Shown here piece after piece: positions 8,207 through 64,000 of a stretch of DNA of 64,000 bases. The notes below the pieces were generated by a model that was given only the letters and a program-made list of their open reading frames with translations, made no database searches and was not told the DNA's origin. The position numbers and the translations under genes were made by a program. This DNA is from Nemertoderma westbladi (lineage: Eukaryota > Animalia > Xenacoelomorpha), in contig JAUCBJ010008708.1 of assembly GCA_032718475.1 (NCBI GenBank), forward strand, positions 62,001-126,000, written 5' to 3'. How positions within the stretch are numbered: the stretch's first letter is position 1; every line of letters begins with the position of its first letter.

Positions 8207-8210
8207 ATAT

Positions 8211-23421: not shown

Positions 23422-23426
23422 AGTAT

Positions 23427-34140: not shown

Positions 34141-34218
34141 CTGTTTAGAGTATTTACGTATATTAGAAACTGTGATTTTTGTATATTTATAGACTCAAAT
34201 CCCATTTTCTGGGAGCGG

Positions 34219-37474: not shown

Positions 37475-37608
37475 ACCGGTACCGGTAGGCCCCTAATGGG
37501 CATAGGAGCATAGCAGTATAAGCCTACTGCTGTACTGACTGGTTGTAAGTGCTAGGTGGCGGTTGCGGTTGCAGGTTGGTAGGTAGTAGATTCCGGTCTC
37601 ACCACATA

Positions 37609-41490: not shown

Positions 41491-42194
41491 AACATATATT
41501 TAAAGTTTCCTGTTGTTCTAGAAAGTTAAACTGCATACCTACAAATAATTCCCCACAAATAAATAAAATTAGATTCGCCATTGTTAATAATTAGAACTTT
41601 ACAGCTTTTACCGGCCTCGTTTTGTTATCAACAACATCGCTCGTGCTGTTACGCTTTAAAGTGCTATTTTACGAACAATGATGTATATAGTTAATATCAC
41701 CCTATTGTTTAGCTAATCCTATTTGACAATAAGCGATAATACATGATAAACAGTATAACATAATCTTGGTGAAGAATTAAATTAAAACTAACTTTCAAGT
41801 TTATTCCAGGGCCTAATAATGTCGGTCTGTCTGTCTGTCTGTTCGTCAGTTTTGTGCCATTTAACTACATTAATTGTGCTTTATCTCGTGTAAATTTGCT
41901 AGTGCAATTAAATTAAAATTAATTTAATTTAATTTAATAAGATTACTTAATAAGAGTACTAGGTAGGAGAGATTTAATTTTTTTTTATTAGTCAAGCAAG
42001 AAAGAAAATCCTTACCAGCATAAAACCAACACCTGTTTTCATTAAAGGTTTGCAGAAAAATTAGGTGTATTGAACCAGTATAATCAACTACAGGGTATTC
42101 TGTAATTCGTAATAATAAAGCACCACTGGAATATACCGGAAGTTCTGGGATTCAGGCTAGGATTTATCTTCCCCCATTATCAAGATATTCCGAC

Positions 42195-43418: not shown

Positions 43419-44014
43419 TAAATGGAATGTAAATTTTTTGTTACATCATGTCAAGTTATCAGCGTTCTGATGAAGTACTTGTAATGCTGCAAAGTACCAC
43501 TTTGCAGCGTTGCGGCCTATAGCAGAACGTAGCAAAGTAATCAATAACCTGGAAACAATTTCAATTACTGTATTCCAGTTTAATGTATTATTTCCATGTA
43601 TGAATGTATTAACCCTATAGTTGGGAATCTGAAATTTTATGACTTTTCTAAAAATCTATTGTCTTCAAAAAAATATTGTCTTCTAAAAATATACTAAATA
43701 AATATTTTTAAAAATATTGTGAAAAGTGGGTTAATTGCACAGAGCAGGCGATTTTAATGAAAACAATTTAATTGATGTGTTTTGGTAATAAAAAGCTGTC
43801 AATCAATACTGTGATATATAAAAAAAACTCACAAATTTATGATTTTGTGTGTTTTCACAACACATGGCTTAATAGTAACACAGTGCGACAAAAAGCTTGA
43901 TAATGAAGAATTATGTAGCTAATGTTTTTTCTGTCAGTTTTGTTCTAGTACAGTTTCGAATAACTTATCTCAACTTCTTGTTTGTCTATCTCCAGGTGTT
44001 CTGTGGTTGCCTCA

Positions 44015-44790
44015 CATCTACTCCCCAATAATGTTGGCTACCTCACATCTGCTTCCCAATGGTGGCTACACCACATTACACCCCAATGGTGGCTACACCA
44101 CATTACACCCCAATGGTGGCTGCACCAAAACTACTTTCCATTGTGGCTGAACCACAACAACTCCCCAATGGTGTATGAACCACATCAAGTCCCCAATGGT
44201 GGCTGCACTACACCTACTCCCCATTGGTGTCTGCACCACATTACTCCCCAAGGGTAGCTGCACCATAACTAGTCTCCAATTGTGGCTGAACCACAACTAC
44301 TCCCCAATGGTAGCTGCACCACATTACTCCATAATGGTAGCTGCACGAAAACTACTCTCCAATTGTGGCTGAAACAAAACAACTCCCCAATGGTGTATGC
44401 ACCAATTCAACTCCCCAATGATGGCTGCACCACATCTACTCCCCAATGGTGTATGCACCACATCTACTCCCCAATGGTGTCTACACCACATTACTCCCCA
44501 ATGGTGGGTGCACCAAAACAACTCTCAAATTGTGGTGCGGTCAATGGTGGCCGCACCACTTCAACTCCTTCATGGGGGCTGCTCCATATTTAATCCCCAA
44601 TGGTGTCTGCACCACATCAACTCCACAATGATATCTGCACCACATCAACTCCCCAATGGTGGCTGCACCACTTCAATTCCCCAATAATGGTGGCTGCACC
44701 ACATCTACTCCACAATGGTGTCTGCACCACATCTACTCCCCAATGGTGGCTGCATCACATTACTCCCCAATGGTTGTTGCACCAAAACTA
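44015..44790. repeat. 27-28-bp minisatellite, about 28 copies
   Basis: Approximate consensus CTCCCCAATGGTGGCTGCACCACAT(C)TA. Confidence 0.9.
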
Positions 44791-45565: not shown

Positions 45566-48500
45566 TGATATGTACTGATATGTACAATATACATGGCTCG
45601 CCCCTTATAGGACTATGTACGTAAGATACCGGTACCACTAGATAGGTGGAGGGTTTTCCCTATTGCTATGCTGTACTGATATTACACTGTACTGCTGTAC
45701 AACACTTTTATATTATACGTGTCTGCCTTATATACTATTGATATTCATATTATTGGGGATATTCCGATAGTGCAGACATACCATGGCGCTGCGAGTAGTT
45801 AAACTCACAACACGCATTTAGCATTTAAAGTGTAGCCAAAAGCAACCGCCTGAACGCCAACCCAAAAATGTCACTACCAACTGAGGATGACACCCTCAAC
45901 CTCGATACTTCATCCGTCGACAAACTCGATAGGAATACGCTAAAAGCTCATCTCACCAACGCTGAGATCACGTTTAGCGATAAAACTTCGACAGTTGCTC
46001 TGAAACAGAAACTGCGGAAATTCCTAGTGGAGGGCGACATAGAAGAAGAGGTGGTAGAATCAGTTGCAGGAGCAGCACACGGAATAGATGTAGCAGCTCT
46101 GCTTCACCAGCAACAGCAGCTGATTAACGACCAACGCGAACAGCAAATACGGATGTTCACTCAACTGCAAGGGTTGCAAATACAACAGGAGGAACAACAC
46201 GCCCGGTTTATGGAAACCCTCAGTGCTGGCGACACTTCTCGCCAACGCGACCGGAACATCGATACTGTCGCTCCACGCATCAACGAACGTGAAACAACTA
46301 AACTCACGGTACGCGCACCAAACCTATTGGAGGACGACGTCGACTTCAAGGAGTTTAAAAGGTGGGAGGCCACTTGGCGAAATTATTCCCGGGTCACGAA
46401 ACTCAATAATAAAATCAGAGAGGATCAACTAGCAACCTTCTTCTCATACTGCAGTCCGGATTTTTTGAACCGATTGCAGTACGCCATTAGTATCCCGCAG
46501 GATACCACATCGTCAATGGAGGAAATCCTTACGATCATACGAAATCACCTGCGAGCCCAACAAAATATAACGGTGGACCGTTATAAACTCGTCCGTAAAC
46601 GTCAGGATGATAAAGAATCCTTTGACGACTTCTATATTAGTTTGTGCGAGATGGCGGATGACGCGATTCTCGAGAGCATGGCAAAGGATGATTGGTTATC
46701 AACTCTCATAATTTGCGGTATAGAAGACGACGAAACTCGGTTGGAGTTGCTCGCAAAGAAACCTACGCTAACACGCGAAGAAATCGTAGATTTTTGCCGC
46801 AATAAAGAACTGGCTATGAAAGACGACCAACGACTAAAGCAAAACGTCGGCGCGGTTTATCCAAAATCCCGCCCCCATAGTCGCGGTCGCCCTCGCCAGA
46901 AAAAATCTGCTGATCCTAAGGAGAAACAACCTCGCCGCAACTCCCAACTTCCTCCCAATGTTTGCTACAAATGTGGCGGTACCTGGCCCCAGAACAGCAG
47001 CAAACCGTGTGCCGCCAAGGGTAAAACATGCTCCAACTGCAATCGTATTGGCCACCTAGCCGACGTGTGTCGTAATCCAAAAGAGAAACAGACGCCGAAA
47101 CGAACTGGAGCAATAATCCTGGCTGCATTCAAGGAGGCGGCCTACACATCGAGGCCCCTTATATCCATAGACTTCCATGATACTCAGGGCGAATACATAG
47201 CGACTAAAGCCTGCATAGCAGATACAGGGGCTCAGGTTACAGTTGCCGGAATACAACTGTTAAAACGGTTCGGTATAACGAGGGATAAACTCCAACCAAC
47301 GGAAGTAAACCACCAGAGTGCAGATGGTTCATCCATACATTGTCTCGGGTCCATAGACTTTATTCTTTGTGCGAAACCATCCTCTGACTCTCATACCGAA
47401 ACCATATACATTTGTGATAAAATGAAGAGAGATGTCTTCCTCTCCCTAGCAGCTTGTAAGGGACTACACATTGTACATGACATGTTCCCCGCCCCCTTCC
47501 CAAATCAATACAGAGTTGGTGCTGTGAAGGAAGTCCTACCGACGACGGATATAAAACTCGCAGAGAAAACGGAAAAAAAACTCATAGAAGAATTTTCCGA
47601 CGTTTTCGCTATCCCTTCAGAGTTGAGGACGATGAACGGCCCACCGATGAAAATCGAACTGAGGGAGAACGCAACCCCGTTTTGCATCTACGCTGCTCGG
47701 AATATTCCGCTCGCCTACAGAGAAAAGGCGCGCCTTGAAATCGAGGATATGCTTACAAAAGGAATAATCGAACGTGTCGGGTATCGAGCTGTTCCTTGGT
47801 GTCATCCGATTGTCGTATGCCCGAAACCCGGCAACCCAGAGGAAATTCGGATGACCGTCGACTTGACGAAACTCAATAACCAAGTGAAACGGACAATTCA
47901 TAACGCGCGTACGCCATCCGATATTATGATGGACCGCACACCAAACGCTCGCTGGTTCACCAAACTCGACGCCAAATCGGGTTATTGGCAGGTGGAGCTG
48001 GCTGAGGAGTCGCGCGACCTTACCACGTTCCTAACGCCTTGAGGGCGCTACCGATACGCCAGGGCCCCTATGGGATTCATTTCCACTGGAGACTCGTATA
48101 ACTACCGTGGCGACCTAGCTCTGGACGGTATACCTAACGTTAAGAAACTCGTGGATGATATACTCATAGAGGATGAATCCCTAGAAGAACACATCGATCG
48201 CGTCCGCACAATATTGGAGCGTTGTCGCACCCACGGAATAACTCTGAACCGCAAAAAGTTTCAGTTCGCCAAACAACGCATCCAATTCGCTGGTTTTATA
48301 CTTTCCAGCACCGGAGTAGAGGCCAATCCGGATAAAATCCGCGCAATCGTTGACTTTCCTACTCCCACGAATATAACAGAGTTGAGAAGCTTCATGGGTC
48401 TCACCAACCAGCTGGGATGTTTCTCCTCAGCCGTGAGCTCAGCCGCAATTCCTCTGCGTGAATTATTGCGCACTAGAAATAGTTTCACCTGGACAACCAT

Positions 48501-50150
48501 GCAGGATAATGCATTTAAAGAGGTTAAACTCGCGTTAACGAGTCCCCCTGTCTTAGCCCCATTCGAACTCCAGGCCGAAACACGCCTTGAAACAGATGCC
48601 AGTTGGTTACAAGGTCTGGGTTTTAATTTAATGCAAAAACAACAAAATGAATGGAAATTAATCATATGTGGTAGTCGATTTTTAACGAGTGTGGAAAGTC
48701 GATATGCAACTATAGAACTCGAAACCATTGCAATAAAGTTTGGTTTGGAGAAATGCCGCATATATCTGGCTGGCATTGAACCTTTTAAAGTAATTATTGA
48801 CCAAGCCCACTCGTTTCTATTTTTAACAAACATACACTGGGTCAAGTTGAGAATAACAAAATACAGCGTATAAAAGCTGAGTTGCAGTCAAATTATCTAT
48901 TTGATGTAGAATGGCGGCAAGGTGAGAAAAATCGCATTGCCAACGGTTTAAGCCGTGCCCCAGTTGATAATCCAGAGGATGTAATCGAGGATGAGATGGA
49001 TAACACCTCAACTTTGGCTGCAATTTCCTCTGCATTACAATCCCATCAAAATAGTATGCAAAATACTACATTACAGTGTGGCTCGCCCCATATCCCTTCT
49101 ACTGATGACCCTGTCATAGAAGAGATCTGGGCTGCAGCATTAGTGGACCCTGACTACCAATCCCTTTTGTGTGAAATTCTTCAGGGACCTACAAATAAAA
49201 ATACTGTGTCCAGCCTGACACAACAGTGTAAATCTATTATCCACGAAATGTCCGTCGAAAATGGACTGGTTTTATTTGGTGTACAATTAGTCATCCCGAA
49301 ATCAAAACGAAACCTCGTTCTAAAACGTTTACACGCCCCACATCAGGGTATAGTACGTACCAAACAACGACGGCCGATCTCCCAACGAGATTGTGTTCGG
49401 TCACAATCTACGGTCACGAGTGCCAGCTCACCATACTACTTACGATCCTAAATGGCGCGATGCTGCTGAAGAAGCAGACAACAAACACAGCATTATTCGT
49501 AAGAAGGCGATAGACCACTATAATAGCACTGCACGAAACCTAAAACCATTGCCCGTTGATACCAAAGTGCGCCTACAAAATGCCCGCACCAGAACTTGGG
49601 ACCGCACCGGAATTATAACCAGCCGGCAAGGAGCGCGTGACTATTGGATAAAACTCCCATCTGGGCGCGCAATGCGGAGAAACCGACGTTTCATACGACA
49701 ATTCAATGAGCCGCTAGAACTTGGAAACGACTTGCAAACCGGTGACTTCGAAACTGAAAGTAAATCTGATACAAACGTTGAAACTGAAGCAAGTAATAAC
49801 CACTCAGAAGAAACTGAAAGCAATTTACTACGCCACAGTACACGCTCACGTAAACCCATTGTGCGATTCGATGAACGGGTTTACGAAACAAGATTTTAAA
49901 TTGAAAAACATTAAAAATCTAAAAGGGGGAGTTGATATGTACTGATATGTACAATATACATGGCTCGCCCCTTATAGGACTATGTACTTAAGATACCGGT
50001 ACCACTAGATAGGTGGAGGGTTTTCCCTATTGCTATGCTGTACTGATATTACACTGTACTGCTGTACTACACTTTTATATTATACGTGTCTGCCTTATAT
50101 ACTATTGATATTCATATTATTGGGGATATTCCGATAGTGCAGACATACCA
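45566..50150 (+). mobile_element. Ty3/Gypsy element, Mag-like, defective
   Basis: 218-bp LTRs at 45566-45783 and 49933-50150 (2 mismatches noticed); 5-bp TSD CACAA; PBS TGGCGCTGCGAG (tRNA-Ser-like) at 45784-45795; PPT AAAAGGGGGAG at 49921-49931. Confidence 0.95.
45868..49899 (+). pseudogene. Mag-like gag-pol: single ORF broken by TGA at 48040, a frameshift near 48810 and an integrase-core deletion near 49370
   Basis: Two CCHC-type knuckles; ADTGAQVT; LDAKSGYWQ; LVDD; TDAS; LHAPHQGIVRTKQR joined directly to DGRSPNEIVFG…RRNRRFIR. Confidence 0.9.
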
Positions 50151-51432
50151 CACAAGTCCCAGATAGACCATATTCTGTTTCGTAGGAAATACAGGAGCTC
50201 TATACAAGACTGTAATGCATTTACACTTCGACCCTTCTCCAGTGATCACCGCCTTATTGTGGCAATGGTAAGACTTAGTCTGCGTGCTAGCAGAACAACG
50301 AAATCTGCCTTGCCGCGGCATGACTGGTCCTCTCTGTTGCAACAGCCAAGTGTGAAATCCAGTTTCACACTACAGCTGAGCAACAGGTATGAGGCTCTTG
50401 CCTCTGAGGCGGCAGATCACTGTGAGGGCTATACTGCCTTTACAGAAGCAGTTAGCAGCTGCAGAAACAGTTCCTGTATACCCACGAAACAGGAAAAGGG
50501 CCCCCTGGACTGACAACAAAATTCAGAAGTGCCGAAATGACCTTCATAAGGCGCAGAAAGATTCCCGACTCAAACAGACTACAGCGGCCAAGAATGCAGT
50601 TAAGGCTGCATCTAGGTCCCTGAACAGGCAGTACTCTGTTAATCTACAGGAGCTAATAAACCAACAGGTTGATGCCATCAATGATGCTGACGACGACAAC
50701 AGGAAATGGAAATTGATCAATTTGCTTACTGGGCGGAAAAGCCAACCAACCACCAAGGTTAAGGCTGAATCACCAGCCGATCGCCTCAATGGTTGGAAAG
50801 CCCACTTTGAAAAGCTCCTCGATAATGACAGGGTATTGCCTGATAACTTTATAGAAGTAAAAGTGTCTGAGTCTGTACTCCCCCATATTCCCATTGGCGA
50901 TATCTCCTTTGCAGAAGTGAAGACTGCTGCAAAGAGCATTAAGACCAATCGTGCCAGTGGAGTATATGGTGTTCCCCCTGAGGTCTTTAAAATACCTGAG
51001 TGTTTAAAGCTCATCTATCCCATCATAGTGGACATGTACCGAATAATAAGAGTCCCACAAGAAATGAAAACAAATAAGTTGGTGCCAGTTTCCAAGAAGG
51101 GCAACCTAACACTCTATGGTTCTTTTCGGGGAATCTCATTGATCTCGATTGCTGCAAAGCTATACAATAGGAATCTATTAAATCGCATCAGGGATACCAT
51201 TGAGAGACTGCTCCGTGGAAATCAGAATGGGTTCCGTAAAGGTCGTGGGACCATGGAGCCCATTCTGGCACTTAGAAGGATAATTGAAGAATTATCAAAA
51301 AAGAAAGACAGGCATCTGGCTGTTATCTTTGTTGACTTCTTCAAGGCCGTTGATTCAGTCTCTCGCTCATGTATGTTCAGCATACTTTCATTATATGGGA
51401 TTCCTGATGAAATTATTGCAGCAATCAGATCA

Positions 51433-53320
51433 TGTAAGGGTCCAGTAGTATACCGCTTACCAGATCCTAGTAACGATGTATCTTACTATGAGACTCTAGT
51501 AATGTATACGGGCTTGTACAGTATCTGACAACAAATCCCAGTCCAGGATATCTAAACAAACAGATATAGTACACAAACGACTACTGGCGAGGAACAGAGC
51601 CTTGTATCTATTCTATGTACGTGAGCGGGTCGAATGCCTACGTACTAGACAGAAGGATACCTGTCCTCTAACCGGTGAGGCAGATGTACAGTTACAGTAA
51701 CAGACCAAACTCACGGGAAAACAATCCCCGCGCAGCGAATCCTAACTATCACTGACAGTCCTAAATACAGTAACTTGCCGCGGTGTGATTTATATGGTTT
51801 ATATACGAGCTAGTGGGTTAACAGACCTAGCGTAACAACACTGACAGTCCTAAATCAGTCGAAAAGGGGTCGTACCTAAATGTAACAATAACTGATCCCC
51901 CTGTACGAAATCAGTCTAAAGGGTCAGGCCTAAATGTAACAATACCGTTGTCCAGACAAACAACAGTTTAATAACGAAAGTGAAATACTCCTTTTTTTGC
52001 CGCAACTAAATCAGATCCTAATTTTACAAATACAGATAATTTCCACCTAACGTAATGTATAGTACGCTATAGCTAGTAGAACTTTAAGGGCGATATGTTT
52101 TAGGGCGTGTGTGTGTGGGTGTGTTACAAATAAAACAATTTCGTGTAATTCCTTTTACTAGGTTTTAGTGATTTTCTGACTAAATGATACCGTGCGCTAG
52201 CTACTAAAATAAACTAGTCGCGTTTGTAGAACTTTATACTCACGAATGACGTCAAAGCTCTCTCCTTCCTATCCACAACCCAATGGGCAACCACAGTGTT
52301 AGTAACTACACCCGTGATCGGCACTAATACCAGATTCTGGTTGTAAGATAAGAATAGGGGTTAATCGCTACCGTACGTTAGCTGATCTGGTATACTAATT
52401 TAATTCTAGAACTTTGTTGCTGCGGTAGTTAGCAGCAATACCTATCAGTACGTGGCGAGGCGCGGTAGGATATTAATAAACCTCCCTAGGCCAAGCAGTG
52501 TGCCGGTAGCAGAAATGCTCCTTGCCTGATCAAATAGCTAACTCCAGACAGGGGGGGGGGGGGGGGGGGTACTAATGTACGTTCTACAAAGCGAACCGGT
52601 ACCAAACAGTCAGTGCTACGACTCACTAAATTATGGAACATATGCTGTCCGTACCTAATATGTACTCGCGTACTGACGAATGGCAATAGTTCGCACCTGT
52701 AGGAAGTACAGGTTAACCCAGGGATTCGTAGGACTTGACAAAGGGGGGGTGTCTGGATATAATTATTTGATCCTAAATTTGCGGCGTCCAGTACAGTGTC
52801 ACGCTTACCCTGATCTATAGGTCTTACGGCGGGCAAGGGCGTCGAACAAAGTCTTACCTTCTCACAAAGCGGGCGCTGCATAGCAAGTGGAGTATTTCGA
52901 AGGGCAAAGGGGGTGCGCGGTCAATCCAATGTGGGCGCTAGCGTGTTGTGGACATCTCTTCCCTGCGTTGCTTACGGCCTAACGATCTAGGCTGCCATCT
53001 CCCTGGTGTTCGGCTGTCCCGAAGTCGGACCAAAAGAAAACATGTCAGGAAATTGCAGTATATTTACAGTTTTACAAAAGGATTTATCAAATAAAGTTTC
53101 AACAAGAAACCGAATTAACTAATTTTACAAGAATAAACTATAAGGTGGAGAAAAGGGGTAACGAAGTATATATTGATAACCGAAGGCAAACCGGCCTTTT
53201 ATACTAGAAATTGCACATGGAAACTAAACAGAATTTTCCACAGCTTCACCATTGAGCAATGAAGTGCTTCGTGCTCTATGATTGGCCCAGCTCATCGTTC
53301 AACGCAGTCCGGCCCTTACA
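51433..53320 (-). repeat. Putative 3' LTR of BEL-C (about 1.9 kb)
   Basis: Inverted termini TGTAAGGG…CCCTTACA. The inner boundary is unconfirmed (no second LTR in the window, no clear PPT). Confidence 0.5.
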
Positions 53321-53489
53321 CTAATCTGGGACATGGAATCCTAACAGAATTTTCCACTGCCTCACATTTGAGCAATAAGATAATTTATGCCCTATGATTG
53401 GCCTGGCTCATCATTCGCTACGCTGTACGCTTCTCATTGGCCTACCAATTAGCACCACACGAAAATAAATGGCCCCAAAATACAAATTT

Positions 53490-53557
53490 CCCGACTGGGA
53501 TTCGAACTCGTAACCTACGTAATGTAACCAACGCCTTAACCATCTGACCACTACGCC
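53490..53557 (-). ncRNA. Degenerate tRNA-like Pol III promoter within BEL-C
   Basis: GGCGTAG-TGGTCAGATGG (A box)…GAGTTCGAATCCC (B box); the acceptor stem does not pair. Confidence 0.55.
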
Positions 53558-54218
53558 ACGAGAGTACCTAAGGGTTTTATGTGTACAAATATGAATAGGC
53601 ATATTACATTACTGTAACTTAATCAAAATACGTCGGATTTTCAAAAGTTTTTACGTTAAAGTTAAACTACAAATGCTATCTTATAGTGAAATAATTCATC
53701 ACCGCTCCATGAAAACAGTAAGTAAGACTGTTTTCACCAATCAAAATATAAAATATCTACAAACTATTTCTAAATTTACTGGTAGGGCCTAAAATATAAA
53801 ATATAATCACTATCTAATCATTGCATACTTAATATTGCAGATACGGCGTAAATACAATCGATCGTACATACAAATACAAATTTACGAATTAACTTTAGTG
53901 CCTAAAATACAAAAAAAGGCTTTCGGTTATCAAGGTAAGCAAATTAAACAAATCAGAACAAATAAATCAAACAAATCAAACAAATAAATCAAACTCTTTC
54001 GATAAATCTTTATATATTGTAAATATACATAATAAACCTTCACCAAATTAAATTAGTCCAAATATAATATAAACACAATGCGCTAATAACTTCCAATAGT
54101 GTCCTCCTGACGATCTGAAAAGTTCGTCCTACTGGTCTGGATGTCTTCTCCTGAGCATCAATTGCTAACGGTAGGCTCGCAAGCCTTCCTTTCCATCTCG
54201 CTCCTCCAAATCCAACAT

Positions 54219-54759
54219 TCATACATAATATCCGAATATAAATATCCAATATAACATCCAAATATAATATCTGAATATAATATCCTTTCTTCTCGCTTTC
54301 CTATTCCTTGGCCGACCGGGCTCGTCCACGTCCTCTATTGCGATTGGGTGGTGGTCGAGGTCGAACTGGGCTCGGACTTCGGCGTCGAGTTGTCGGTGGT
54401 TCCAAAACGCTAGGAAAGGGGACGACGGGAGATGAAACGACCCCCTTCTTGGTAACGCAGACTTTGGTGGTTTGGGCAACGCGCTAATATCGGCTCAGGG
54501 TTCTCGCAAACGTCGTTGGCGTCGCATAACGCATCGTAGGTGTACAACGCTTTGAACTCCGCGCGTAACTCCTCCGCTGTTTTGTTATAAGCGTCCAATC
54601 GCTGTCGCGTGATGTTTGGATCCGCCTTGGATTTAGCAAGCTTGGCTGTACTCCTAGCCATACTCTCCACTCCAAACAGGTTAAAGTTTTGGCCCCATAT
54701 CGGTTGAACGGCGCCTGGTGCTACTATTCCTGCGTGGATCCTTGATAATAGTGTTTCTA
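54219..54759 (-). CDS. BEL-C accessory ORF exon (predicted spliced; possible frameshift near 54450)
   Basis: GC-rich coding-like island (ORFs 54410-54772 and 54219-54479) preceded by a CTAAC branch point, pyrimidine tract and AG at 54761-54760. Confidence 0.55.
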
Positions 54760-55451
54760 CTAGAGGAAGCACAAACAGAGGTTAGATGTGAGGAGACTTA
54801 GAGTTTGTCGGCTTTTGGCTCAACTCTGCTCTAAACCCCAACCCATTTTGCCTAATGACTTCGGGTTCGCGTGATTTCGCACTGGCCCCTAATCCAAAAA
54901 ATTGTGCCGATAAAAAACGAATTCCGGGTAAACTAGCCGCGAGTCTAAAATACTCACCTTTTAATTTCCCAAACTACATTTCCCAAGAAAATAATGCAGT
55001 CGAGAATTAATTGGTCAAAATAATAGTAGACACGACTACGTAGAACAAGACCGATTTTCTTTTCCAGAAAAAATTTTATCGGTAGGCTCGCAAGCCTTCC
55101 ATCCGCTCTTGTCCTCCCCAATTTTAATTTTATCTAGCTGTATTCTAGAATTTGCTTTCACTGGAGAATCGTTTTTCTTAAATTTAAATCCAACTAAATG
55201 GATTTGTCTAATAATTTTTGAAAATTGTCTCACTTGTGGGTTCCAAGTGGAATTCCATTCCTACTGTACACACAATCCCGCTCCTATGTGATACATAAGG
55301 GTACTACCCTCCATGTTCACGTATAAAGACAATGGAATTCCACCGCTGTCTCTATCTACAGTGAAGAGGATTACAAATGCACGTACAGTAATACAAATAC
55401 AAATAACTAAAATACAGTAGGTCTATGTGGCGGCCAACAAAGGTCCCACAT

Positions 55452-55907
55452 CTATTTACTAATATTGGGTGGAGATTTGTAGTCTCCCGTCTCGTTTCTA
55501 GTCTCCTCAAGGAGTACGAGACGTTGTACAGGCCTATCTACGGTACGTCCGTCGATAGTCCGTACAGTAACTGTTCTCACTATACCAGATGTAGGGTGCG
55601 TGGTCAAAATGACTCCAGTCAGCCAAAACCGTATTTTCAGATTAGCTTCAGCCAATAAAACATGGTCACCACGTCTTAAACATCGGGTATTTAGATACCA
55701 GGAAGTTCTGGTTGAAATAGAGGGCAAATAATTTTTCTGCCATATTTCCCAGAATTTATTTGCAAGCAATTGAGTGATTTTCCAAGCCTTGTTGCCGTAT
55801 CCGTCACTATCAACGGGTACCGAAATGGGCAACAGTGTCGTCGGCGCCTGCATAAGCAGGTGCGCTGGTGTCAAGGCAAACTGTACGTCGTTATTGTCTG
55901 GGATCAT
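55452..55907 (-). pseudogene. BEL-C integrase C-terminal domain
   Basis: ALTPAHLL, FWEIWQKNYL, GDHVLL, W..G.I, GIVRTVTVRT, RPVQRLVLLE. Confidence 0.9.
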
Positions 55908-55913
55908 GGTGTT

Positions 55914-58900
55914 TCATGGTAATTCATGGTGTTGCGGTATGATGATAGGATACCTAAAGTCAAGTGCAAAGTCGATGTTTTGGAGTCTGGACTTGTGACA
56001 AAGTAAGCCCCGGTAAATAATCGAACTCCAACTCAAAATCGGTGAAGACTTAATCTGTTTACCTTGTTTGATCGCTGTGAACTCTCGTGCGAAATATCGC
56101 AATTGATAATGTCGAATGATATCAACTTCACAGTGTTCAATTTCCTTTAAGGTAAGTCTTCTAGGAAAGTCGCGTTTGCCTCTGGCATATTGTCTCAATC
56201 GTTTGAGCCATGCTAACTTGCGGCACGCGTCAGTCCATGATCTAGTTAGGTTCACTATCCTGTCAACGTAAGTGTTGGTGACGTCATCGGGTAAGGTGTA
56301 GTCGTAGTGTGGATACTTGTCTGGACTTGGTAGGCCCACGGGCCTTCCGGTAGGTTTGTCTGAGTCCCCAAGTACGTCAATCTCTACGGTCTTACCTTTA
56401 CCGTCCGCACCTAATATGTCGACTGGCAGTAATGGTTTCAACTCTACAGTGTCAGTGTGTTCCTGTGAGCCTGTAAGCTTCCTAACCTTAGTCACCACTT
56501 TACCTGTAGGTAAGTCAAGTACCTTCTTCGAGCGGAGTGTAATCCCTGTGGCCACATCTCTGTCGTCCAAAGAAGTCAAATTCGGTAAGTCTCTAAATGT
56601 CCGCTCCAATGGGTCTTCTAATGGAGTGTCTAGTAGACAGTCTGGTGAAGCGTCTGGTGAACAGTCTGGTGAGACGTCTGGTGAGACATAGCGCGGAACA
56701 TCCGGCGAAATGTCCTGTCGTCGGTCCCAAAGTCTGTCTAGCGTAACTTCTATCAGAAAGTCTGGTTCAAAGTCTGGTGAACAGTCGGTCGAGATGTCTG
56801 GTGAACAGTCTGGTGAGACGTCCGGTAGACATTCTGTCGAGAGTTCCATCAAACAATCTGGCGAACAATCCGGAGAACAATCTGGTGTCTCTTCTGGTGA
56901 ATAGTCTGGCGAGTAATCTGGTGAACAATCCGGCGAAACGTCTGGTGAAATCTCCCGCGGAACATCCGGCGAAGGATTCGTACAAGCGTCTGGTCGAGTG
57001 TCTGGCGAGACGTCTGGCGTAATGTCAGGTCTGGCGTCCAGGTCATCAGATTTCGTCCGTCCTTTTTTCCTTTTGACCTTGGCGTTGGCTTTCCATTTAG
57101 ACTTGACAACCTTGTCGAGTTTTATCTCGGCACCCTCTGGTATGGTGTTGGTTGTCGCGTCGAATAACGGTGGCCATTCGTCTGATGGTCGCTGTAGGAA
57201 ATCGGGTCCTCTAAACCAAAAGGATTTATTGTCCGGTTTACAAAAGTCAAGTGGTTGCATCCCCCGTGACGCGATGTCAGCTGGGTTCAGCTTCCCTGGA
57301 CAGTGACGCCAATCTTGTTTGAGCGACCGGTCTAGTATTTCAGCCCGTCTGTTGGCTACGAAAGTCTTGAACTCGAATGTTTCGTTGTTTATGTACCAAA
57401 GTACCAACGTCGCATCCATCCAATATGTGACCTTCAAGTTAGCCTCCAGCTCGCGTTGAACTAGACTGACAATATCGGTAGATATCGTCCCGGCTTGCAG
57501 CTCCCCACGAGGTACAGTCATATACTTCAATGGCATTGTTCTAGCCCTTGAAGTAACGAGAGATACATCGTAGCTGTCCGATGTCACTTGTCGTCTAAGG
57601 TATAAGGTAACCCCCAATCCATCCTTGCTAGCGTCACTAAAGCTGTGAAGCTCTAAATCGGCAGGAAAGGTGGTTTGTAAAGGAAAGTATACCCTCGGTA
57701 TGGTATAGTCTTGTAGGAACGTCAGTTGGGCTTCCCAGTCCCTCCATCGCTCAGCTAACTTTTCTGGGATGGGATCGTCCCATTCCAGTCCGGCTTGCCA
57801 AATGCTGCGGAGTATGATCCTAGCATGTAGGATCACTGGACTAATGAAACACAATGGGTCATACAATCGACTCATAGTCGATAAGCAAGTCCTCTTAGTG
57901 AGAGGTCTAGTCTGGTCGTTGGACCTTACACGTACCCTAAAATTGTCGGTGTTAGGGTCCCAACTAAGTCCTAATACTTTGGTCGTCGGCAGTGGTTCTA
58001 GGTCTAAGTCTAAATCACCTCCGCTACGATCCATCGGGTCAAATGAGTTCACCAGTTCGGGTTCGTTGGAAGCGAACTTCGTCAGGTGAAATCCGCCCTC
58101 AGCGAGACAATCCTGGAGTTGGTGTGCTACGGTTGTAGCGCGCTCCAAGGTGTCACAACTCTTGAGGCCGTCATCCACGTAGAAATCTCGTTCCACGGTC
58201 CGAACTACTTCTGGGTCAAATTGGTCTCGTCTGTCTAATGCTGTCTGCTTCAAGGCGTACATGGTGCAGTTGGGGCTGTCCCTGGCTCCGAATACTCTTA
58301 CCTGCATTTGGTAAGTTTCTGGCGGAAGTTGTAAGTTTCCGTCCGGATACCAAAGAAACCTCAAACTTTCCCTGTTCCGCTCCAAAGCCTTAACCTGGTG
58401 AAACATGGCCTCTACGTCACAGGTGAAAGCCACTTTGCGTTGTCTAAAACGCATTAGGACTCCCATGAGGTAATTATTCATATTCGGCCCGTCCATCAGT
58501 TCGCTATTCATAGACATCCCTTGGTAAAGCGCAGCGCAGTCGTTGACTACACGCACCTTGCCAGGTTTGTCCGGGTGTCGAACATAATGATGTGGCAGGT
58601 AATATGTCTGGTCTGTAGTTACCTCAGGATTTAACATCCTAATGGCGTATCCCTTTTGGAGATACGTCTGAAGTTGTGCATTGTATTGCATATGGGCCGT
58701 CTCGTCTCGCAACAATCGCTGCCTTATTGATTTGAGTCGCCTCAAAGCAAGCGGGTAATTGTTAACGAGCTTAGGTTGTCCATTGCGCCACAACATACCA
58801 ACCTCATAGTGGCCATTCGCGGTCTGGCGAATGGTATCTCTCATAATATTTAATGACCGTTTTTCCTGTTCTGACATAGCGGTCTCGTAACTACCGGGTT

Positions 58901-61900
58901 CTGCTGAGTCCTGTTCCAACCATTGTATGGTCCGTTCAGTCAGCAGTCGGTCAAGCGCTGCTTGCACTGCGCCATGGTCCTCGTCCACGTCTTCGTCCGC
59001 TGCGGTGGCTAGTGTCAAGGTGTCTGGTAGGCTCGCAAGCCTTCCGGTGTCACTAGTCGGCGTCGAATTGTCGTGCGGCGGTTTGACAACCTCTTGATCT
59101 ATCGGTAGGCTCGCAAGCCTTCCAAGATCAACGACCGGTGTCGAAGCCTGGTGGGTGGGGTCAATGACCTTCGGATTTTTCGGTAGGCTCGCAAGCCTTC
59201 CAAAATCCTCGTTCATCGAGTCATCCACGGCAACAACCCTCAGGTCTTCGGTAGTCAATACAACCTGGTCTACTGCAAGTAGTTGTAAGTCAGAGGTCCG
59301 TATGGTCGTGTCCAGATCGGTTACGTCAGTATCGGTGGCGTCTGCGTTAGTGACGCAAGTCTGTCGTAGTGCCGTCCGTACAATTGGACCACGGGAGTGT
59401 GAAGGAGAATTATCTATCGTGTTAGTCAATAAACTACACGTGCTCAAAACGTCGTCCTCCTGGTCACTTACCTCTAGTGAACGTATTGGTGCTCTAGTAT
59501 ACCAACCTATGGGAGTTCTACATGCGTAGGGGTTGCCCGCTGTAATAACAGATGGGCGTGTCTCCCATACCTGATGTAAGTTAAACTGGTCTGTCCCAAT
59601 TAACATCGCAATGGAACGATAATTGACAGGACATTCCGGTATTCCAAGGTGTCGAAAATACTTACGATCTTCCGGAGATTGCTCTGGCACAGGGCCGAGC
59701 AAGTTACTAAAGTCCTTCGTAGCTGCAAAGGTCAAATTTCTTACCGGAAGTAATGAGCGCTCCTCCTTGCTGTGTTCCGTTTTGGAAAGAAGAGTGTCTA
59801 AAGTTAGTTTTACTCTCGTCACAGGAATCGCTCTCTTACCATGCATGCTGCTTACAGTATACTGAGCAGTCTTACCTTGACTCAAGTCCGTAACTACGTC
59901 GGCTACTTGTTCGTCGACATAGCTATGCGATGACGCAGAGTCTAAGATGGCGTATATACGCTTGCTCCCTCGGGTTCCGGTAATCTTTATAGGAATCACG
60001 CTAAACCCTTTCAATTGGTTCTGTGTGAGGAGCGTTATCGAAGGCTGTTCCTCACCTGCATGCACGTAGAAAGTGTCGTCTTCCTCCTCGTCCTCGTCCG
60101 ATGATCCTGACTGATCCATACAGTCGGTATAAAAGGTACGGATCTCGCGCGGCGCACGCTCCTTATAAAGCGCGTCGCATCTAGCCGCTTTATCGGGATG
60201 CTCTCGTCGAAAGCGTCTGGTCGGAGTATGACTGGTTGTGTGAAGCAACGCGTCATGGTTACGTCCACACAGAGAACATGTATCATCGCTCGGGCAATCC
60301 TTCCGGACGTGTCCTGGCTTCATACATCTCCAACAGGAATCTAGAGATCGGATTTGGAGTCTCCTTTCCTCGATCCCTAACTCTTTAAAAGCGCGACATC
60401 CACGTAGTTTATGTCCGCTATGGTTTCTGCCGTTCCGCTCGCAGTATGAGCATCCCACAAAGTCCGCCGGCAACTGTTGTCGTGGCTGCGTGGTGCCGAT
60501 AGGCGTCAGAACTTTAGAAGTCTCAGTAGGGGTGGCGTAAGTAACGGCTTTCGCGTTCGTCGGAAACGGTTTAGTCCGATTCGGCGCAGAAACAGTTATC
60601 CCTTCCGCCGCGATATGGTGATCGGTATAGTTCGATCGAGTCTCGATCACGGCCTCCCGTGAAATAAGTTGATAGACATCGGTGAGTTTTAATAACCCTC
60701 CGGCCTCTTCGCGTTGGTACTCGATGCGTCGCCATTCTCGTCGTAGTCGATGATGAAGTCGACCGATTATTCGAATGAGAACCGTCGGTGCGTTAGCGTA
60801 CTCGAGTTGTCCAATGGACCGTAAAGTCCCTATAGCGTTCTTTATTTCGTCCGCGAGTCGTAAAAGGTCGATCGGTCTCGAAATGTTGCCTCCTCTGCAG
60901 AGGTCTTCAATGATGGATTTAGCCATGGCGACATTACCGCCGTAAATCGAATACAAACGGTCGTACGCCAATTCAAAGGCATCGGGAACACCAATAAAGG
61001 TTTCCGCTAATCGTTTCGGCTCACCAGACAGAACTTGGAGCAAGTAATTAAACTTCTCCGTCGAGGTGAAAGCACACTTAGCGATCTGGGACTCTACGTA
61101 GTCTACCAGTGTGCGCCAGTGTTTCGCGTTGCCAGAGAATTTCGGCAGTTGCTGTGCCGGTAATCCGTGTCTAGCCGCGAATTTCGCAATCTCGTTAACT
61201 AAGTCCAACTGTCCGCGTCCCTGTTCGGTGGCGTCGTCCAGTCGCTTCCTTCCGCGCGTTGTTCGTCGGTAGGAATTATTAACGGGATCTTCTTCTCGAT
61301 GTGTCGGAGTCCGTCTAGTCTCCTGTTCTCTCCTCGGTGGTCGATGTTGTCTAGGTTGTTCCAACTCCACGCTGGTTCGTGATCGATCCGACGGTTGCGC
61401 TTCGAGTCGCTCTTCGAGTTGAGCTAGTCGGTCCGTTACAGGTCGCATTATTTCGGCGAGTCTGTTGGTGCTGATCGCTTCCGCAGGTTGCAACGTGGGT
61501 TTCTGTTGGGGTGTTTCTCGTGGAGGATTATCAATATAGGGGTTCGTCGATCGTTCCTCCCGTTTGTAATCCGCTGCCGCTGCCGCTCCAGTACGGAATA
61601 TTTCCCGTTCCGTCGACTCCGAGTCACTGGATGAATCGCTGTCGTCCGGATAAGGTGGTTGGCGGGTTCGCGTCCGGCGTATTATTCTTGGTCGAGTTCG
61701 TCGTGGTCTGGGATCTACGGCTCCTCGTTGTTCGGTAGGCTCGCAAGCCTTCCACGAAGTCGTAGGTCTCGTTAAACATTGGGTGAGAGGTCTAGTAAAA
61801 ACATCTGAGTTAAGTTCTACTGTAGGTTTATAAATGACTGGGTTCGCGCAGCACGTCACAGGTTTAACTTGCAATGGTTTACTCACCTGTTTTACTGTCA

Positions 61901-63560
61901 TAAACGCAGGTTCGTCTCTCTCCACAAGTAAACTACGACTTACTGTAGGTGGACTAGTTATGTTACCTGCTAAAATTGGCGATGAAGTCGCCCTAGGTTG
62001 CGGTATTTCCGTCACAACAAACCTGCTACCTTGCGTCGGACGCACAGGCGTTATTTCCTTAGGTTTCGTAACGAAGACCGGTTTTATCGGAGTCGTGGGT
62101 TTGAGCATAGGAATAACTTGGGGAAAACGTTTACAGTAATCCTCGACGAACTCCTCTCCTCGATCTATCGCTCCCACGCTTCCTTCCTCGATCCGCTTCT
62201 GTATTCCGCGATATCGAGCTTCCATACGATCCAGGGCAGACAAGTCGTGTCCAGTTCGCGATCTTATAGATCTATCTCTCGCGTCGAGTTCGAGGTCCGC
62301 TTGCGCGTTCGCTGTCTCGCGCGATCTACGATTCAATTCGAACTGTAGTTGCATCTCCCTTTCGCGTCGATCTGCGTCCTGTTGTTGTGCCGCTAATTCC
62401 GCTTCCTGTATAGCTAATCGAGCGTTTATTTGCCGCGCCTCCAACTTGGCATGAGCGTCGGATGCTGCTTTCTTCCGTGCTAACTCGTCAGCTGCCGCCT
62501 GTCGTGCTAACTCGTCGGCTGCTGCCGCCGCGGCCGCTTCTCGCGCTAAGTCCTCCTCCAGTCTCCGCATCTCTGATGCTTCGAACTCAGCCTGTGCTTG
62601 AAGTTTCGCAAGTTTCGCTACGTCCTCTCTGCGCTGTTTTTCTCCTTCGATGGCGATCTGTGCCATCTGTAGTTGCGCTTCTTCCTCGGCGACTTGTTGT
62701 CGGCGTGCAACCTCCTGTTGTTGTCGAGTAATTCCAGACGCTGTTCTACTAACGTCGCCAACGTTGCCAACGTCGCTCCGTACGCTAACGAACGATCTAT
62801 CCAGTGGTGGATGTTGGTAGGCTCGCGAGCCTTCCGTAGTGAGAACTTCCGTCGTCCCTCGCGGTTCGACTTCCGGTTCGTCGATCGGTACGCCGCATCT
62901 ACGAAGAAAATTGGTCAGCGTTTCCAACCTTCCGTCCAGGCAGTAGAGTTCTTCTTCCTCTTCTGGTTGTAACAACGCGTCCGAAACTGACTCACCTAGC
63001 AGTTGGTCGAACTGCTCCTGTTGAGCCAATCTTATCACCGACTTAAACTGGATAAGGCTTTCTCTCGCACTTACCAATTTATCTACTATCTTTACCTGAG
63101 TAAAGTTGTCGCCACGCAACTCTGCAAGTTCGTGCAAACCTTTAAGTTTATCTACGGAGGCATGTACCCTACTTTCTATCCTTACCTGTAAGGTGTAGAA
63201 CTCGTATCTCGACATCGGGGCGGTTAACTCACGTAAAACGCGAAAACCTTCTCCGAGGTTCCGAGTAATCTGGGCCATGTGTCCTCCTATACTTCTAATA
63301 ACGTTCTCCTGGCTTCCAGTCGAACTTACCATGTCCGGTTCCCGCGATCTAGTCTGCGGGACGGTAAGGAAATCTTCGATCCTGCCGTCGCCACGCGTTG
63401 CGGCTTCCGGTATTTCCGTTCGGGGTACCGGCGACGCAAGCGGTGTGACATCGGTGGAATCTCGGGTTCTCCTTCTCGGTTCGTCTACTGTCGATCTGTC
63501 CAGGTCGCACGAGTCATAGTCGGTAGATGGGTATCTCGTCGAATGGGGTGTGTCACTCAT
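55914..63560 (-). CDS. BEL-C Gag-PR-RT-RNase H polyprotein (2548 aa) lacking the integrase core
   Basis: LPKFSGN…KFNYLLQVLSGEP; three knuckles; ILDSASSHSYV; YYLPHH…KVRVVND; FYVDDG; YDPL; FSDAS; NPADIASRG. Ends after YPIIIP. Confidence 0.93.
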   Translation of the reverse strand: MSDTPHSTRYPSTDYDSCDLDRSTVDEPRRRTRDSTDVTPLASPVPRTEIPEAATRGDGRIEDFLTVPQTRSREPDMVSSTGSQENVIRSIGGHMAQITRNLGEGFRVLRELTAPMSRYEFYTLQVRIESRVHASVDKLKGLHELAELRGDNFTQVKIVDKLVSARESLIQFKSVIRLAQQEQFDQLLGESVSDALLQPEEEEELYCLDGRLETLTNFLRRCGVPIDEPEVEPRGTTEVLTTEGSRAYQHPPLDRSFVSVRSDVGNVGDVSRTASGITRQQQEVARRQQVAEEEAQLQMAQIAIEGEKQRREDVAKLAKLQAQAEFEASEMRRLEEDLAREAAAAAAADELARQAAADELARKKAASDAHAKLEARQINARLAIQEAELAAQQQDADRREREMQLQFELNRRSRETANAQADLELDARDRSIRSRTGHDLSALDRMEARYRGIQKRIEEGSVGAIDRGEEFVEDYCKRFPQVIPMLKPTTPIKPVFVTKPKEITPVRPTQGSRFVVTEIPQPRATSSPILAGNITSPPTVSRSLLVERDEPAFMTVKQVSKPLQVKPVTCCANPVIYKPTVELNSDVFTRPLTQCLTRPTTSWKACEPTEQRGAVDPRPRRTRPRIIRRTRTRQPPYPDDSDSSSDSESTEREIFRTGAAAAADYKREERSTNPYIDNPPRETPQQKPTLQPAEAISTNRLAEIMRPVTDRLAQLEERLEAQPSDRSRTSVELEQPRQHRPPRREQETRRTPTHREEDPVNNSYRRTTRGRKRLDDATEQGRGQLDLVNEIAKFAARHGLPAQQLPKFSGNAKHWRTLVDYVESQIAKCAFTSTEKFNYLLQVLSGEPKRLAETFIGVPDAFELAYDRLYSIYGGNVAMAKSIIEDLCRGGNISRPIDLLRLADEIKNAIGTLRSIGQLEYANAPTVLIRIIGRLHHRLRREWRRIEYQREEAGGLLKLTDVYQLISREAVIETRSNYTDHHIAAEGITVSAPNRTKPFPTNAKAVTYATPTETSKVLTPIGTTQPRQQLPADFVGCSYCERNGRNHSGHKLRGCRAFKELGIEERRLQIRSLDSCWRCMKPGHVRKDCPSDDTCSLCGRNHDALLHTTSHTPTRRFRREHPDKAARCDALYKERAPREIRTFYTDCMDQSGSSDEDEEEDDTFYVHAGEEQPSITLLTQNQLKGFSVIPIKITGTRGSKRIYAILDSASSHSYVDEQVADVVTDLSQGKTAQYTVSSMHGKRAIPVTRVKLTLDTLLSKTEHSKEERSLLPVRNLTFAATKDFSNLLGPVPEQSPEDRKYFRHLGIPECPVNYRSIAMLIGTDQFNLHQVWETRPSVITAGNPYACRTPIGWYTRAPIRSLEVSDQEDDVLSTCSLLTNTIDNSPSHSRGPIVRTALRQTCVTNADATDTDVTDLDTTIRTSDLQLLAVDQVVLTTEDLRVVAVDDSMNEDFGRLASLPKNPKVIDPTHQASTPVVDLGRLASLPIDQEVVKPPHDNSTPTSDTGRLASLPDTLTLATAADEDVDEDHGAVQAALDRLLTERTIQWLEQDSAEPGSYETAMSEQEKRSLNIMRDTIRQTANGHYEVGMLWRNGQPKLVNNYPLALRRLKSIRQRLLRDETAHMQYNAQLQTYLQKGYAIRMLNPEVTTDQTYYLPHHYVRHPDKPGKVRVVNDCAALYQGMSMNSELMDGPNMNNYLMGVLMRFRQRKVAFTCDVEAMFHQVKALERNRESLRFLWYPDGNLQLPPETYQMQVRVFGARDSPNCTMYALKQTALDRRDQFDPEVVRTVERDFYVDDGLKSCDTLERATTVAHQLQDCLAEGGFHLTKFASNEPELVNSFDPMDRSGGDLDLDLEPLPTTKVLGLSWDPNTDNFRVRVRSNDQTRPLTKRTCLSTMSRLYDPLCFISPVILHARIILRSIWQAGLEWDDPIPEKLAERWRDWEAQLTFLQDYTIPRVYFPLQTTFPADLELHSFSDASKDGLGVTLYLRRQVTSDSYDVSLVTSRARTMPLKYMTVPRGELQAGTISTDIVSLVQRELEANLKVTYWMDATLVLWYINNETFEFKTFVANRRAEILDRSLKQDWRHCPGKLNPADIASRGMQPLDFCKPDNKSFWFRGPDFLQRPSDEWPPLFDATTNTIPEGAEIKLDKVVKSKWKANAKVKRKKGRTKSDDLDARPDITPDVSPDTRPDACTNPSPDVPREISPDVSPDCSPDYSPDYSPEETPDCSPDCSPDCLMELSTECLPDVSPDCSPDISTDCSPDFEPDFLIEVTLDRLWDRRQDISPDVPRYVSPDVSPDCSPDASPDCLLDTPLEDPLERTFRDLPNLTSLDDRDVATGITLRSKKVLDLPTGKVVTKVRKLTGSQEHTDTVELKPLLPVDILGADGKGKTVEIDVLGDSDKPTGRPVGLPSPDKYPHYDYTLPDDVTNTYVDRIVNLTRSWTDACRKLAWLKRLRQYARGKRDFPRRLTLKEIEHCEVDIIRHYQLRYFAREFTAIKQGKQIKSSPILSWSSIIYRGLLCHKSRLQNIDFALDFRYPIIIPQHHELP
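56635..57030 (-). repeat. 12-bp in-frame tandem repeats encoding [S/T]PD[C/V/Y/I]
   Basis: TCTGG[T/C]GA[A/G]NNN units on the plus strand; protein …SPDVSPDCSPDYSPDYSPE…. Confidence 0.9.
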
Positions 63561-64000
63561 GTCTTATTATATACGTCGAGTACGGGTAATAAAATGTCAG
63601 TGTCTGAATGTTGAAGTGTCAAACTTACCTTGGTATATATAGTACATATATACCCTAACCGGTACAAATAAATCAACAAGTCAGAATGTCGAAATGTCAA
63701 AATGTCGAAATGTACAAATGTCAAACTTACCTTGATATATATATATATCATATATATACCCTAACCGGTACAAATAAAACTAACAAGGTATATAATAAAA
63801 TAAGTAGTAATCTAGCCTACCGGCTAAATTTGTACGAATAAGTGAGATAACGGTATACGTTAACAAAATATAGATCAACAAGTAAACAATAGGCCAAACA
63901 GCAACGTCTAACGGGAAAATAAGTACCAACAACACTACTAATAGACAGTGAAACCCACAAATTTTGAGTACTACTGTGCTTTCTTAAGTTTGAACGACGC

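What the first reader, a model, noticed from the sequence alone, without database searches (positions are those of the whole stretch)
54170..62835. A 20-nt hairpin repeated seven times through BEL-C, in all three reading frames and in non-coding RNA
Seen: plus-strand GGTAGGCTCGCAAGCCTTCC occurs at 54170, 55081, 59026, 59104, 59182 and 61734, with a one-base loop variant at 62816. On the sense RNA it is GG-A-AGGCU-UGCG-AGCCU-A-CC, a stem-loop with an A-A mismatch. Within the polyprotein it is read as GRLASLP (three times, 78 bp apart), WKACEPT and EGSRAY, i.e. all three phases, and the flanks are unrelated. All coding copies lie in linker regions outside the catalytic domains, and two copies are downstream of pol. 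Protein-level selection or tandem slippage cannot explain this. Established: RNA phages use dispersed packaging hairpins, and complex retroviruses use structured response elements. Inference: a multi-site cis-acting code for Gag packaging, export or localisation, or a palindromic DNA operator, possibly read by the element's accessory protein. I know of no such system described in BEL/Pao elements.
Basis: partly seen in the sequence, partly recalled or inferred. Interest (0 to 1): 0.9.

Follow-up and report, generated by a model that had tools for sequence, protein, structure and literature searches.

The report
Eight self-pairing hairpins in a retrotransposon
A jumping gene carries eight copies of one small palindromic hairpin spread through its coding and non-coding sequence, kept almost unchanged while the letters around them drift, and these likely act as tags on its RNA that its own capsid protein would bind and that are predicted to let two RNA copies pair for packaging.

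Summary
The repeat is real: six exact copies and one single-change copy, all on one strand, none expected by chance. I found an eighth copy (56329) with the same two 7-nt arms and a different 6-nt centre. Six copies lie in pol-polyprotein linkers in three phases and two lie 3' of pol. In contigs of two studies, family variants hit 1 of 60 motif places against 26 of 151 flank places (p=0.0008; 0.055 on a conservative count), and 0 of 24 synonymous-capable places, so the constraint is on nucleotides. New point: all three centre types are self-complementary on the sense RNA when G·U is allowed (216 of 4096 hexamers are). This cannot matter inside a hairpin loop but lets two copies form a 20-bp duplex. 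These are among the strongest predicted self-pairing sites of the element, on the sense strand only. Best reading (0.45): multi-copy hairpins that work like the retroviral dimerization/packaging hairpin (DIS/SL1). An export or localisation tag is the main rival (0.27); a DNA operator is less likely. No binding, expression or sister-family data exist: all function is inferred.

The parts
62816..62835 (-). Hairpin copy 1 (sense order); centre UCGCGA, a perfect palindrome; phase 2, Gag N-terminal linker (aa 243)
61734..61753 (-). Hairpin copy 2; centre UUGCGA; phase 1, linker before DUF1759 (aa 604)
59182..59201 (-). Hairpin copy 3; first of three 78-bp units between protease region and RT; phase 0; on a predicted lower stem
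59104..59123 (-). Hairpin copy 4; lower stem differs from copy 3 by two compensatory pairs
59026..59045 (-). Hairpin copy 5; third 78-bp unit
56329..56348 (-). Hairpin copy 6, new here; same arms, centre CCGUGG; phase 0 (aa 2406), linker before the integrase region
55081..55100 (-). Hairpin copy 7; non-coding, between pol end and the accessory ORF
54170..54189 (-). Hairpin copy 8; non-coding, downstream of the accessory ORF
55914..63563 (-). BEL/Pao Gag-Pol ORF, 2549 aa (DUF1759 at 809-945, Peptidase_A17 at 1889-2050); ends in a stop where the integrase is cut
60240..60452 (-). Three Cys/His zinc-knuckle-like motifs of Gag (read from the translation; not called by Pfam); candidate reader of the hairpins
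   Evidence: role inferred
55452..55913 (-). C-terminal pol piece (DUF5641); about 235 residues of integrase present in relative P0002 are missing before it
54760..54785 (-). Branch-point, pyrimidine tract and AG: the only acceptor-like site passing my pattern in 54000-64000; 7 of 8 hairpins lie upstream of it
   Evidence: splicing not shown
54410..54781 (-). Orphan accessory ORF, 123 aa stop to stop
54301..54483 (-). Arg/Pro-rich 60-aa open stretch in another frame, overlapping the accessory ORF's end; link to it unknown
51433..53320 (-). Probable 3' LTR region (outer end at the junction with a LINE fragment; inner end uncertain, about 52953 or 53320); holds no hairpin copy
   Evidence: boundaries inferred

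Best explanation
The eight repeats are nucleotide-level conserved hairpins that likely work on the element's sense RNA as a spread-out packaging and dimerization signal: Gag would bind each hairpin, and the self-complementary centres are predicted to let two RNA copies pair. Shown: invariant arms with an A·A mismatch, a fixed 6-nt centre Y-Y-G-Y-G-R, frame independence, low family variation. Predicted: hairpin of -7.6 to -9.6 kcal/mol that can convert to a 20-bp duplex with a net gain of 13-20 kcal/mol on the sense strand. Inferred by analogy with HIV-1 DIS and Ty1 PAL sites: the zinc knuckles read the stem and the two fixed loop guanines and help the loop-loop contact mature into a duplex. 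Inferred: because 7 of 8 copies lie upstream of the splice acceptor, the tag would mark mainly unspliced genomic RNA. Inferred: new copies arise by local tandem duplication in linkers that tolerate it, and selection then keeps the 20-mer while flanks drift.
For: Eight copies, arms identical in 8 of 8, 0.00 arm pairs expected in 300 shuffles; no decayed copy at 2, 3, 5 or 6 mismatches on +. All 5 differences between copies fall in the central 6 nt. All 72 pair cells are standard pairs, including one two-sided change (U-A to C-G) and the two inner centre pairs that can form only between molecules or copies. Centres rank 13, 68 and 120 of 4096 hexamers for duplex gain; 216 of 4096 are self-complementary; 5 of 104 chance arm matches in viral contigs are. 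Homodimer gain on the sense strand: 0-1 of 194 background windows are as low for seven copies and 12 of 194 for the eighth; on the antisense strand seven of eight are ordinary (52-126 of 194). Family variants: 1 of 60 vs 26 of 151 places, p=0.0008; synonymous-capable 0 of 24 vs 8 of 52, p=0.04; the 6 central CpG places show none while 9 of 27 flank CpG places vary. Lower stem of copies 3 and 4: 2 of 5 pairs change on both sides, 0 break. HIV-1 DIS, NC-guanine binding and Ty1 PAL precedent: PMC7599994 and PMC6844567 (passages).
Against: No binding, structure-probing or expression data. Retention of self-complementarity is modest evidence if changes are mostly transitions (4 of 6 and 5 of 15), and two fixed guanines read by a protein would give the same pattern about one time in four at origin (my estimate). 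The two energy rankings are one piece of evidence, not two. Arms are more invariant than pairing alone needs, so a protein reader is required and it need not be Gag. Cross-pairing of the eighth copy with the common type is weak (net -7.4). The family test weakens to p=0.055 if motif depth is taken as doubled by cross-laid contigs, and to p=0.065 at a 10% threshold. A general lower stem is not supported: swapped-flank tests on the seven original copies gave energy p of 0.035-0.52 over six settings, and the register of copies 3 and 4 pairs in only 47.5% of cells over all eight. Known DIS/psi sites lie in the 5' leader; none of these does within the window. No trace of the peptides in 240 relatives, all at most about 50% identical.
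Confidence: 0.45

Rival explanations
1. Multi-copy RNA response element or zipcode: the accessory protein or a host protein reads the A·A stem and drives nuclear export, localisation, stability or translation of unspliced RNA; the self-complementary centre is incidental.
For: Arms more constrained than centre. 7 of 8 copies lie upstream of a strong acceptor, and 14 donor-like sites lie upstream of it. An orphan ORF and an Arg-rich stretch sit between copies 7 and 8. Cer1 CERV shows an LTR retrotransposon can encode an export protein by splicing (PMC10309623, section 15 and passages).
Against: Accessory ORF has no true relatives (2 hits, both repeat proteins), no Pfam, no atlas hit, pLDDT 42.6. 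The Arg-rich stretch is in another frame. Splicing is not shown. It does not explain the sense-only self-complementarity.
Confidence: 0.27
2. Double-stranded DNA operator or insulator (7-N6-7 near-palindrome) bound by a dimeric host protein on the integrated element.
For: Fixed half-sites with a fixed-length variable spacer are the classic shape; the eighth copy fits it. Central CpG places show no variants, which bound DNA could also give.
Against: All eight copies share one orientation; centre and flank changes keep pairing on the sense strand through G·U, which DNA binding would not select. No copy in the LTR region or elsewhere in the window.
Confidence: 0.1
3. No function: a palindrome that is copied and homogenised by reverse-transcriptase template switching or gene conversion, or a tiny self-spreading insert like Rickettsia palindromic elements (name recalled; also named notes).
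For: Copies sit only in tolerant linkers and non-coding DNA. Three arose as 78-bp units. Joints hint at family members with an extra copy near 54275 or one unit fewer. One copy has a 6-nt flanking direct repeat.
Against: Conservation stops exactly at the hairpin ends. Differences fall only in the centre and keep pairing. No half-decayed copies. No common target-site duplication (mean 1.75 vs 1.45 nt swapped). Absent from the five other LTR-element stretches tested. Fewer family variants than flanks.
Confidence: 0.1
4. A single-stranded DNA or RT-stage signal (pause, strand-transfer or priming site) on the minus-strand cDNA.
For: For copies 61734 and 59026 the antisense strand folds its flanks more stably than the sense strand.
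Against: DNA hairpin energies are weak and alike on both strands (-3.9 to -4.7); the antisense strand is U/G-richer and so folds more easily; centre pairing favours the sense RNA.
Confidence: 0.05

Closest known systems
HIV-1 DIS/SL1 dimerization hairpin (PMC7599994, passages)
   Same: Hairpin with a 6-nt self-complementary centre that can form a kissing or extended duplex; non-canonical stem positions; zinc knuckles bind exposed guanines in neighbouring hairpins.
   Different: One copy in the 5' leader versus eight near-identical copies over 8.6 kb, six in coding sequence; no unpaired purines flank the palindrome here; G·U is needed in 7 of 8 copies; no experiment here.
Ty1 PAL1/PAL2 dimerization palindromes (PMC6844567, passages)
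   Same: LTR retrotransposon; hairpin that converts to an intermolecular duplex with Gag; alternative contact points exist.
   Different: Ty1 sites are different sequences clustered at the 5' end; here one sequence is repeated along the element.
Dispersed packaging signals of ssRNA viruses and HBV (PMC6281560, passages)
   Same: Many stem-loops along the genome, inside coding sequence, sharing a recognition motif.
   Different: Those share a short loop/bulge motif with varied affinity; here 16 of 20 letters are invariant and the loop is the variable part.
Cer1 CERV and Rev-type export systems (PMC10309623, section 15)
   Same: LTR element with splice sites and a possible spliced extra protein.
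   Different: No RNA element is described in the section and passages I read; the extra ORF here shows no likeness to any protein.
Palindrome-driven RNA self-recognition (PMC13079385, first third of text)
   Same: Several palindromes give multivalent, sequence-specific self-pairing.
   Different: An in-silico model for germ-granule mRNAs, not for retroelement genomes.

Membership tests
BEL/Pao LTR retrotransposon (host element) | DUF1759 Gag, Pao peptidase/RNase H region, DUF5641 in one gag-pol order | tested here: met
   120 listed relatives carry PF05380
BEL/Pao LTR retrotransposon (host element) | Two LTRs and an intact integrase | tested here: inconclusive
   5' end outside the window; integrase lacks about 235 residues in this copy
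Retroviral DIS-type dimerization hairpin | Self-complementary hairpin centre on the sense RNA | tested here: met
   (computed)
Retroviral DIS-type dimerization hairpin | Single site in the 5' leader | tested here: not met
   eight sites from aa 243 to the 3' region; leader only partly in the window. So: works like, not a member
Retroviral DIS-type dimerization hairpin | RNA dimer formation helped by nucleocapsid | not testable with these tools
   needs bench assay
Dispersed packaging signals | Multiple stem-loops along the genome with a shared motif | tested here: met
Dispersed packaging signals | Specific capsid-protein binding that aids assembly | not testable with these tools
   no RNA-protein tool
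Rev/Rex-type response element | Element lies in sequence removed by splicing | tested here: inconclusive
   7 of 8 upstream of a predicted acceptor; splicing not shown
Rev/Rex-type response element | Element-encoded RNA-binding export protein | tested here: inconclusive
   orphan ORF, no homolog or fold
Known Rfam RNA families | Match to a covariance model | tested here: not met
   0 matches at E up to 5 in 51400-64000
Mobile palindromic inserts (RPE/MITE-like) | Spread through unrelated loci, with target-site duplication | tested here: not met
   confined to this element in the window; no common duplication; genome-wide spread not testable

The most novel reading that the evidence does not exclude
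This retrotransposon family tags its genomic RNA with a repeated palindromic barcode: eight or more interchangeable hairpins that zip two genomes together along their length, or condense them, so that the family packages its own RNAs apart from the many other retroelement RNAs in the same cell. This would be distributed, multivalent genome dimerization instead of a single 5' site.
Probability: 0.25. Interest if true: 0.9.

Novelty: new variant of a known kind. Interest (0 to 1): 0.72.

Why it matters
How BEL/Pao elements pick and pair their RNA was not found in my searches. Here a 20-nt element with three natural centre types gives a small, directly testable candidate. If it dimerizes RNA, it extends the single-leader model of retroviral and Ty1 packaging to a distributed one and gives a natural test of palindrome-based RNA self-recognition. 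If it is an export or localisation tag, it is an unusually exact multi-copy response element written into coding linkers. Two unchecked notes of this scan describe repeated hairpins in other retrotransposon groups, so the design may recur.

Tried and rejected
No whole genome is held, so the genome-wide spread is untested. Exact scan of viral contigs: 0. Metagenome scan: 2 single matches in GC-rich contigs with no similarity to the element beyond the motif; taken as chance. Arms-only scan of viral contigs: 120 loci held, one match each in the 80 rows shown, used only as a null. The search for related loci on viral contigs: none. Protein searches found no relative above about 50% identity and none for the Gag-protease region among shorter proteins; no DNA of sister families could be fetched. 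No RNA holder listed; X4 is only guessed to be RNA. One search showed 40 of 854 variant rows, too few to test the motifs. Rfam and ARAGORN: nothing. Swapped-flank test: not significant overall. Accessory ORF: HMMER hits P0122 and P0123 are long repeat proteins scored by summing 17 and 7 stretches, rejected; model too poor for a fold search, none run. A GNRA-loop fold with a 2-nt bulge was considered by eye and dropped: the eighth copy has no GNRA on the sense strand. A tRNA primer site, a p53 site and SPRE (PMC8579622, abstract only) were considered from recalled features and dropped. The phrase 'bel pao' had 0 occurrences in the rows listed and 0 papers, so it probably misses the slash spelling; one search used separate words and listed 4 general reviews (listing only). 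ASH1 zipcodes: search listing only, not used. Supplements were not read.
Full report
Observation. The 20-mer occurs exactly six times and once with one change, at the stated places, all on the + strand; shuffles give 0.00. The host is a minus-strand BEL/Pao element: a 2549-aa ORF with DUF1759 and Peptidase_A17, then a DUF5641 piece. This copy lacks about 235 integrase residues found in relative P0002, and its 5' end is outside the window. The coding copies are read in three phases and lie where 0-4 of 120 relatives align. Five other LTR-element stretches in the window hold no dispersed repeated arm pair.

An eighth copy. Searching for the two 7-nt arms with a free centre gave eight perfect hits, all with a 6-nt centre; 300 shuffles gave a mean of 0.00. 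The new copy, 56329-56348, has four changes, all in the centre. A scan to seven mismatches found no + strand copy at 2, 3, 5 or 6 mismatches. Sixteen of 20 columns are invariant and conservation ends at the hairpin's ends. All five differences between copies lie in the central six letters. I found the eighth copy by its arms, but the unbiased mismatch scan found no copy with damaged arms.

Real and constrained. Six public runs of four studies hold the stretch or part of it; 18,092 contigs of X1 were laid on 52000-64000, which points to a large, varied family, though depth is no copy number. On 58975-59255, X1, X2 and X3 (two studies) gave 28 variant rows at 27 places, all shown; X5 laid nothing. 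In the interval I chose as callable (59015-59225), 1 of 60 motif places and 26 of 151 flank places vary at 2% or more (p=0.0008); at 4%, 0 vs 13 (p=0.011); at 10%, 0 vs 8 (p=0.065); if motif depth is taken as doubled by cross-laid contigs, p=0.055. Synonymous-capable places: 0 of 24 vs 8 of 52 (p=0.04). Most flank variants change the residue, so the linker protein is loosely held while the nucleotides of the motif are not. Joints (54271 to 55078, and 55108 back to about 54298, equal depth in X5) are best read as family members with one more copy near 54275, where the window has none; the tool warns that such short-sided joints can come from repeats.

Which molecule and strand. The three centre types read UUGCGA (6 copies), UCGCGA and CCGUGG on the sense RNA. 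All are self-complementary with G·U allowed; 216 of 4096 hexamers are, and 5 of 104 chance arm matches. The outer pair changes on both sides (U-A to C-G). The two inner pairs cannot form inside a 4-nt loop, yet stay pairable in 8 of 8 copies. Two of the three types pair fully only on the sense strand. Predicted duplex gain is -15.5, -19.7 and -13.2 kcal/mol (sense) against -7.7, -19.7 and -7.9 (antisense). In 60-nt context, 0-1 of 194 non-overlapping background windows match seven copies and 12 of 194 match the eighth; on the antisense strand seven of eight are ordinary. Caution: with transitions only, 4 of 6 single changes and 5 of 15 four-change sets would keep the pairing, and two guanines fixed by a protein would favour the same pattern.

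Flanks. Copies 59182 and 59104 sit on a five-pair lower stem in the same register; two pairs differ on both sides and none breaks. Six family variants fall in these stems: three keep pairing alone on the sense strand (59206, 59173, 59177), three only if in phase with a partner variant (59204 with 59177; 59130 with 59095). Phase is not seen, cross-laying is possible, and a neighbouring variant (59131) breaks the end pair. A general lower stem is not shown: swapped-flank tests on seven copies gave p=0.035-0.52, and this register pairs in 47.5% of cells over all eight. A purine follows the hairpin in 8 of 8 copies.

Mechanism. The arms are more fixed than pairing needs, which implies a protein reader (inference). 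The centre keeps two guanines and self-complementarity. HIV-1 DIS has a six-letter palindrome that forms kissing and extended dimers with nucleocapsid help, and zinc knuckles bind exposed loop guanines (PMC7599994, passages). Ty1 dimerizes through palindromes with Gag (PMC6844567, passages). This Gag has three knuckle-like motifs. I therefore put a Gag-bound packaging and dimerization signal first (0.45). Seven of eight copies lie upstream of the one acceptor-like site found, which suits selection of unspliced RNA but suits an export element equally (0.27; precedent CERV, PMC10309623 section 15). The accessory ORF gave no support: no true relative, family or fold. A DNA operator (0.10) fits the 7-N6-7 shape but not the strand-specific G·U pattern. 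A functionless copied palindrome (0.10) fits the placement in linkers but not the sharp limits, the centre-only changes or the low family variation. Taken together, a selected element on the sense RNA has about 0.75-0.8.

Comparison and novelty. It works like DIS/PAL sites and like dispersed packaging signals (PMC6281560, passages) but is a member of neither as defined: it is not a single leader site, and it is near-invariant in the stem with a variable loop. Rfam has no match. Six paper searches showed no such element in BEL/Pao; the library omits most subscription journals and two of the searches probably missed the slash spelling. Palindrome-based self-recognition is proposed in silico for germ-granule mRNAs (PMC13079385, first third read). 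Two unchecked notes of this scan report repeated hairpins in other retrotransposons; they are leads, not support.

Verdict. A real, constrained, eight-copy hairpin, most likely an RNA signal; a new variant of a known kind. Interest 0.72. Limits: no sister-family DNA, no RNA data, no experiment.

Noticed in passing
window 55906-55916: This BEL copy jumps from the start of the integrase region to DUF5641, about 235 residues short of relative P0002, with a stop; some X2 contigs continue with other letters here.
   Followed up: partly
window 53490-53560: tRNA-like piece with pol III A- and B-box-like motifs (recognised by eye) on the minus strand in the element's 3' region; not called by ARAGORN or Rfam; contig depth is higher here. 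Possibly a SINE remnant carried by the element.
   Followed up: partly
window 56628-57041: Degenerate 12-bp repeat coding SPD(C/V/Y)-type units in the long linker between the RNase H region and integrase; many family variants.
   Followed up: no
window 63629 and 63731; 62996-63330: Two tandem strong splice-donor-like sites in the 5' leader and five more in the first 200 codons.
   Followed up: partly
window 23427-35465: A second BEL element with 1.25-kb near-identical LTRs on + nested inside a third, minus-strand BEL (20886-37492).
   Followed up: no
window 13570-14410 and 39210-39310: Arrays of a TGTTCTAGAACA palindrome (heat-shock-element-like, recalled) in AT-rich inverted-repeat DNA, probably a MITE family.
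   Followed up: no
window 3847-8208 and 45566-50150: Two short gypsy-type elements (about 4.4-4.6 kb) with 175- and 218-bp near-identical LTRs.
   Followed up: no
window 54170-54300: AT-rich 13/26-bp repeat after copy 8; joints suggest the unit with the hairpin varies in number among family members.
   Followed up: partly
window 15000-16490, 18210-18926, 42188-42617, 44013-44790: Tandem arrays of 55, 45, 105 and 28 bp; the 45- and 105-bp arrays lie in long open frames without Pfam match.
   Followed up: no
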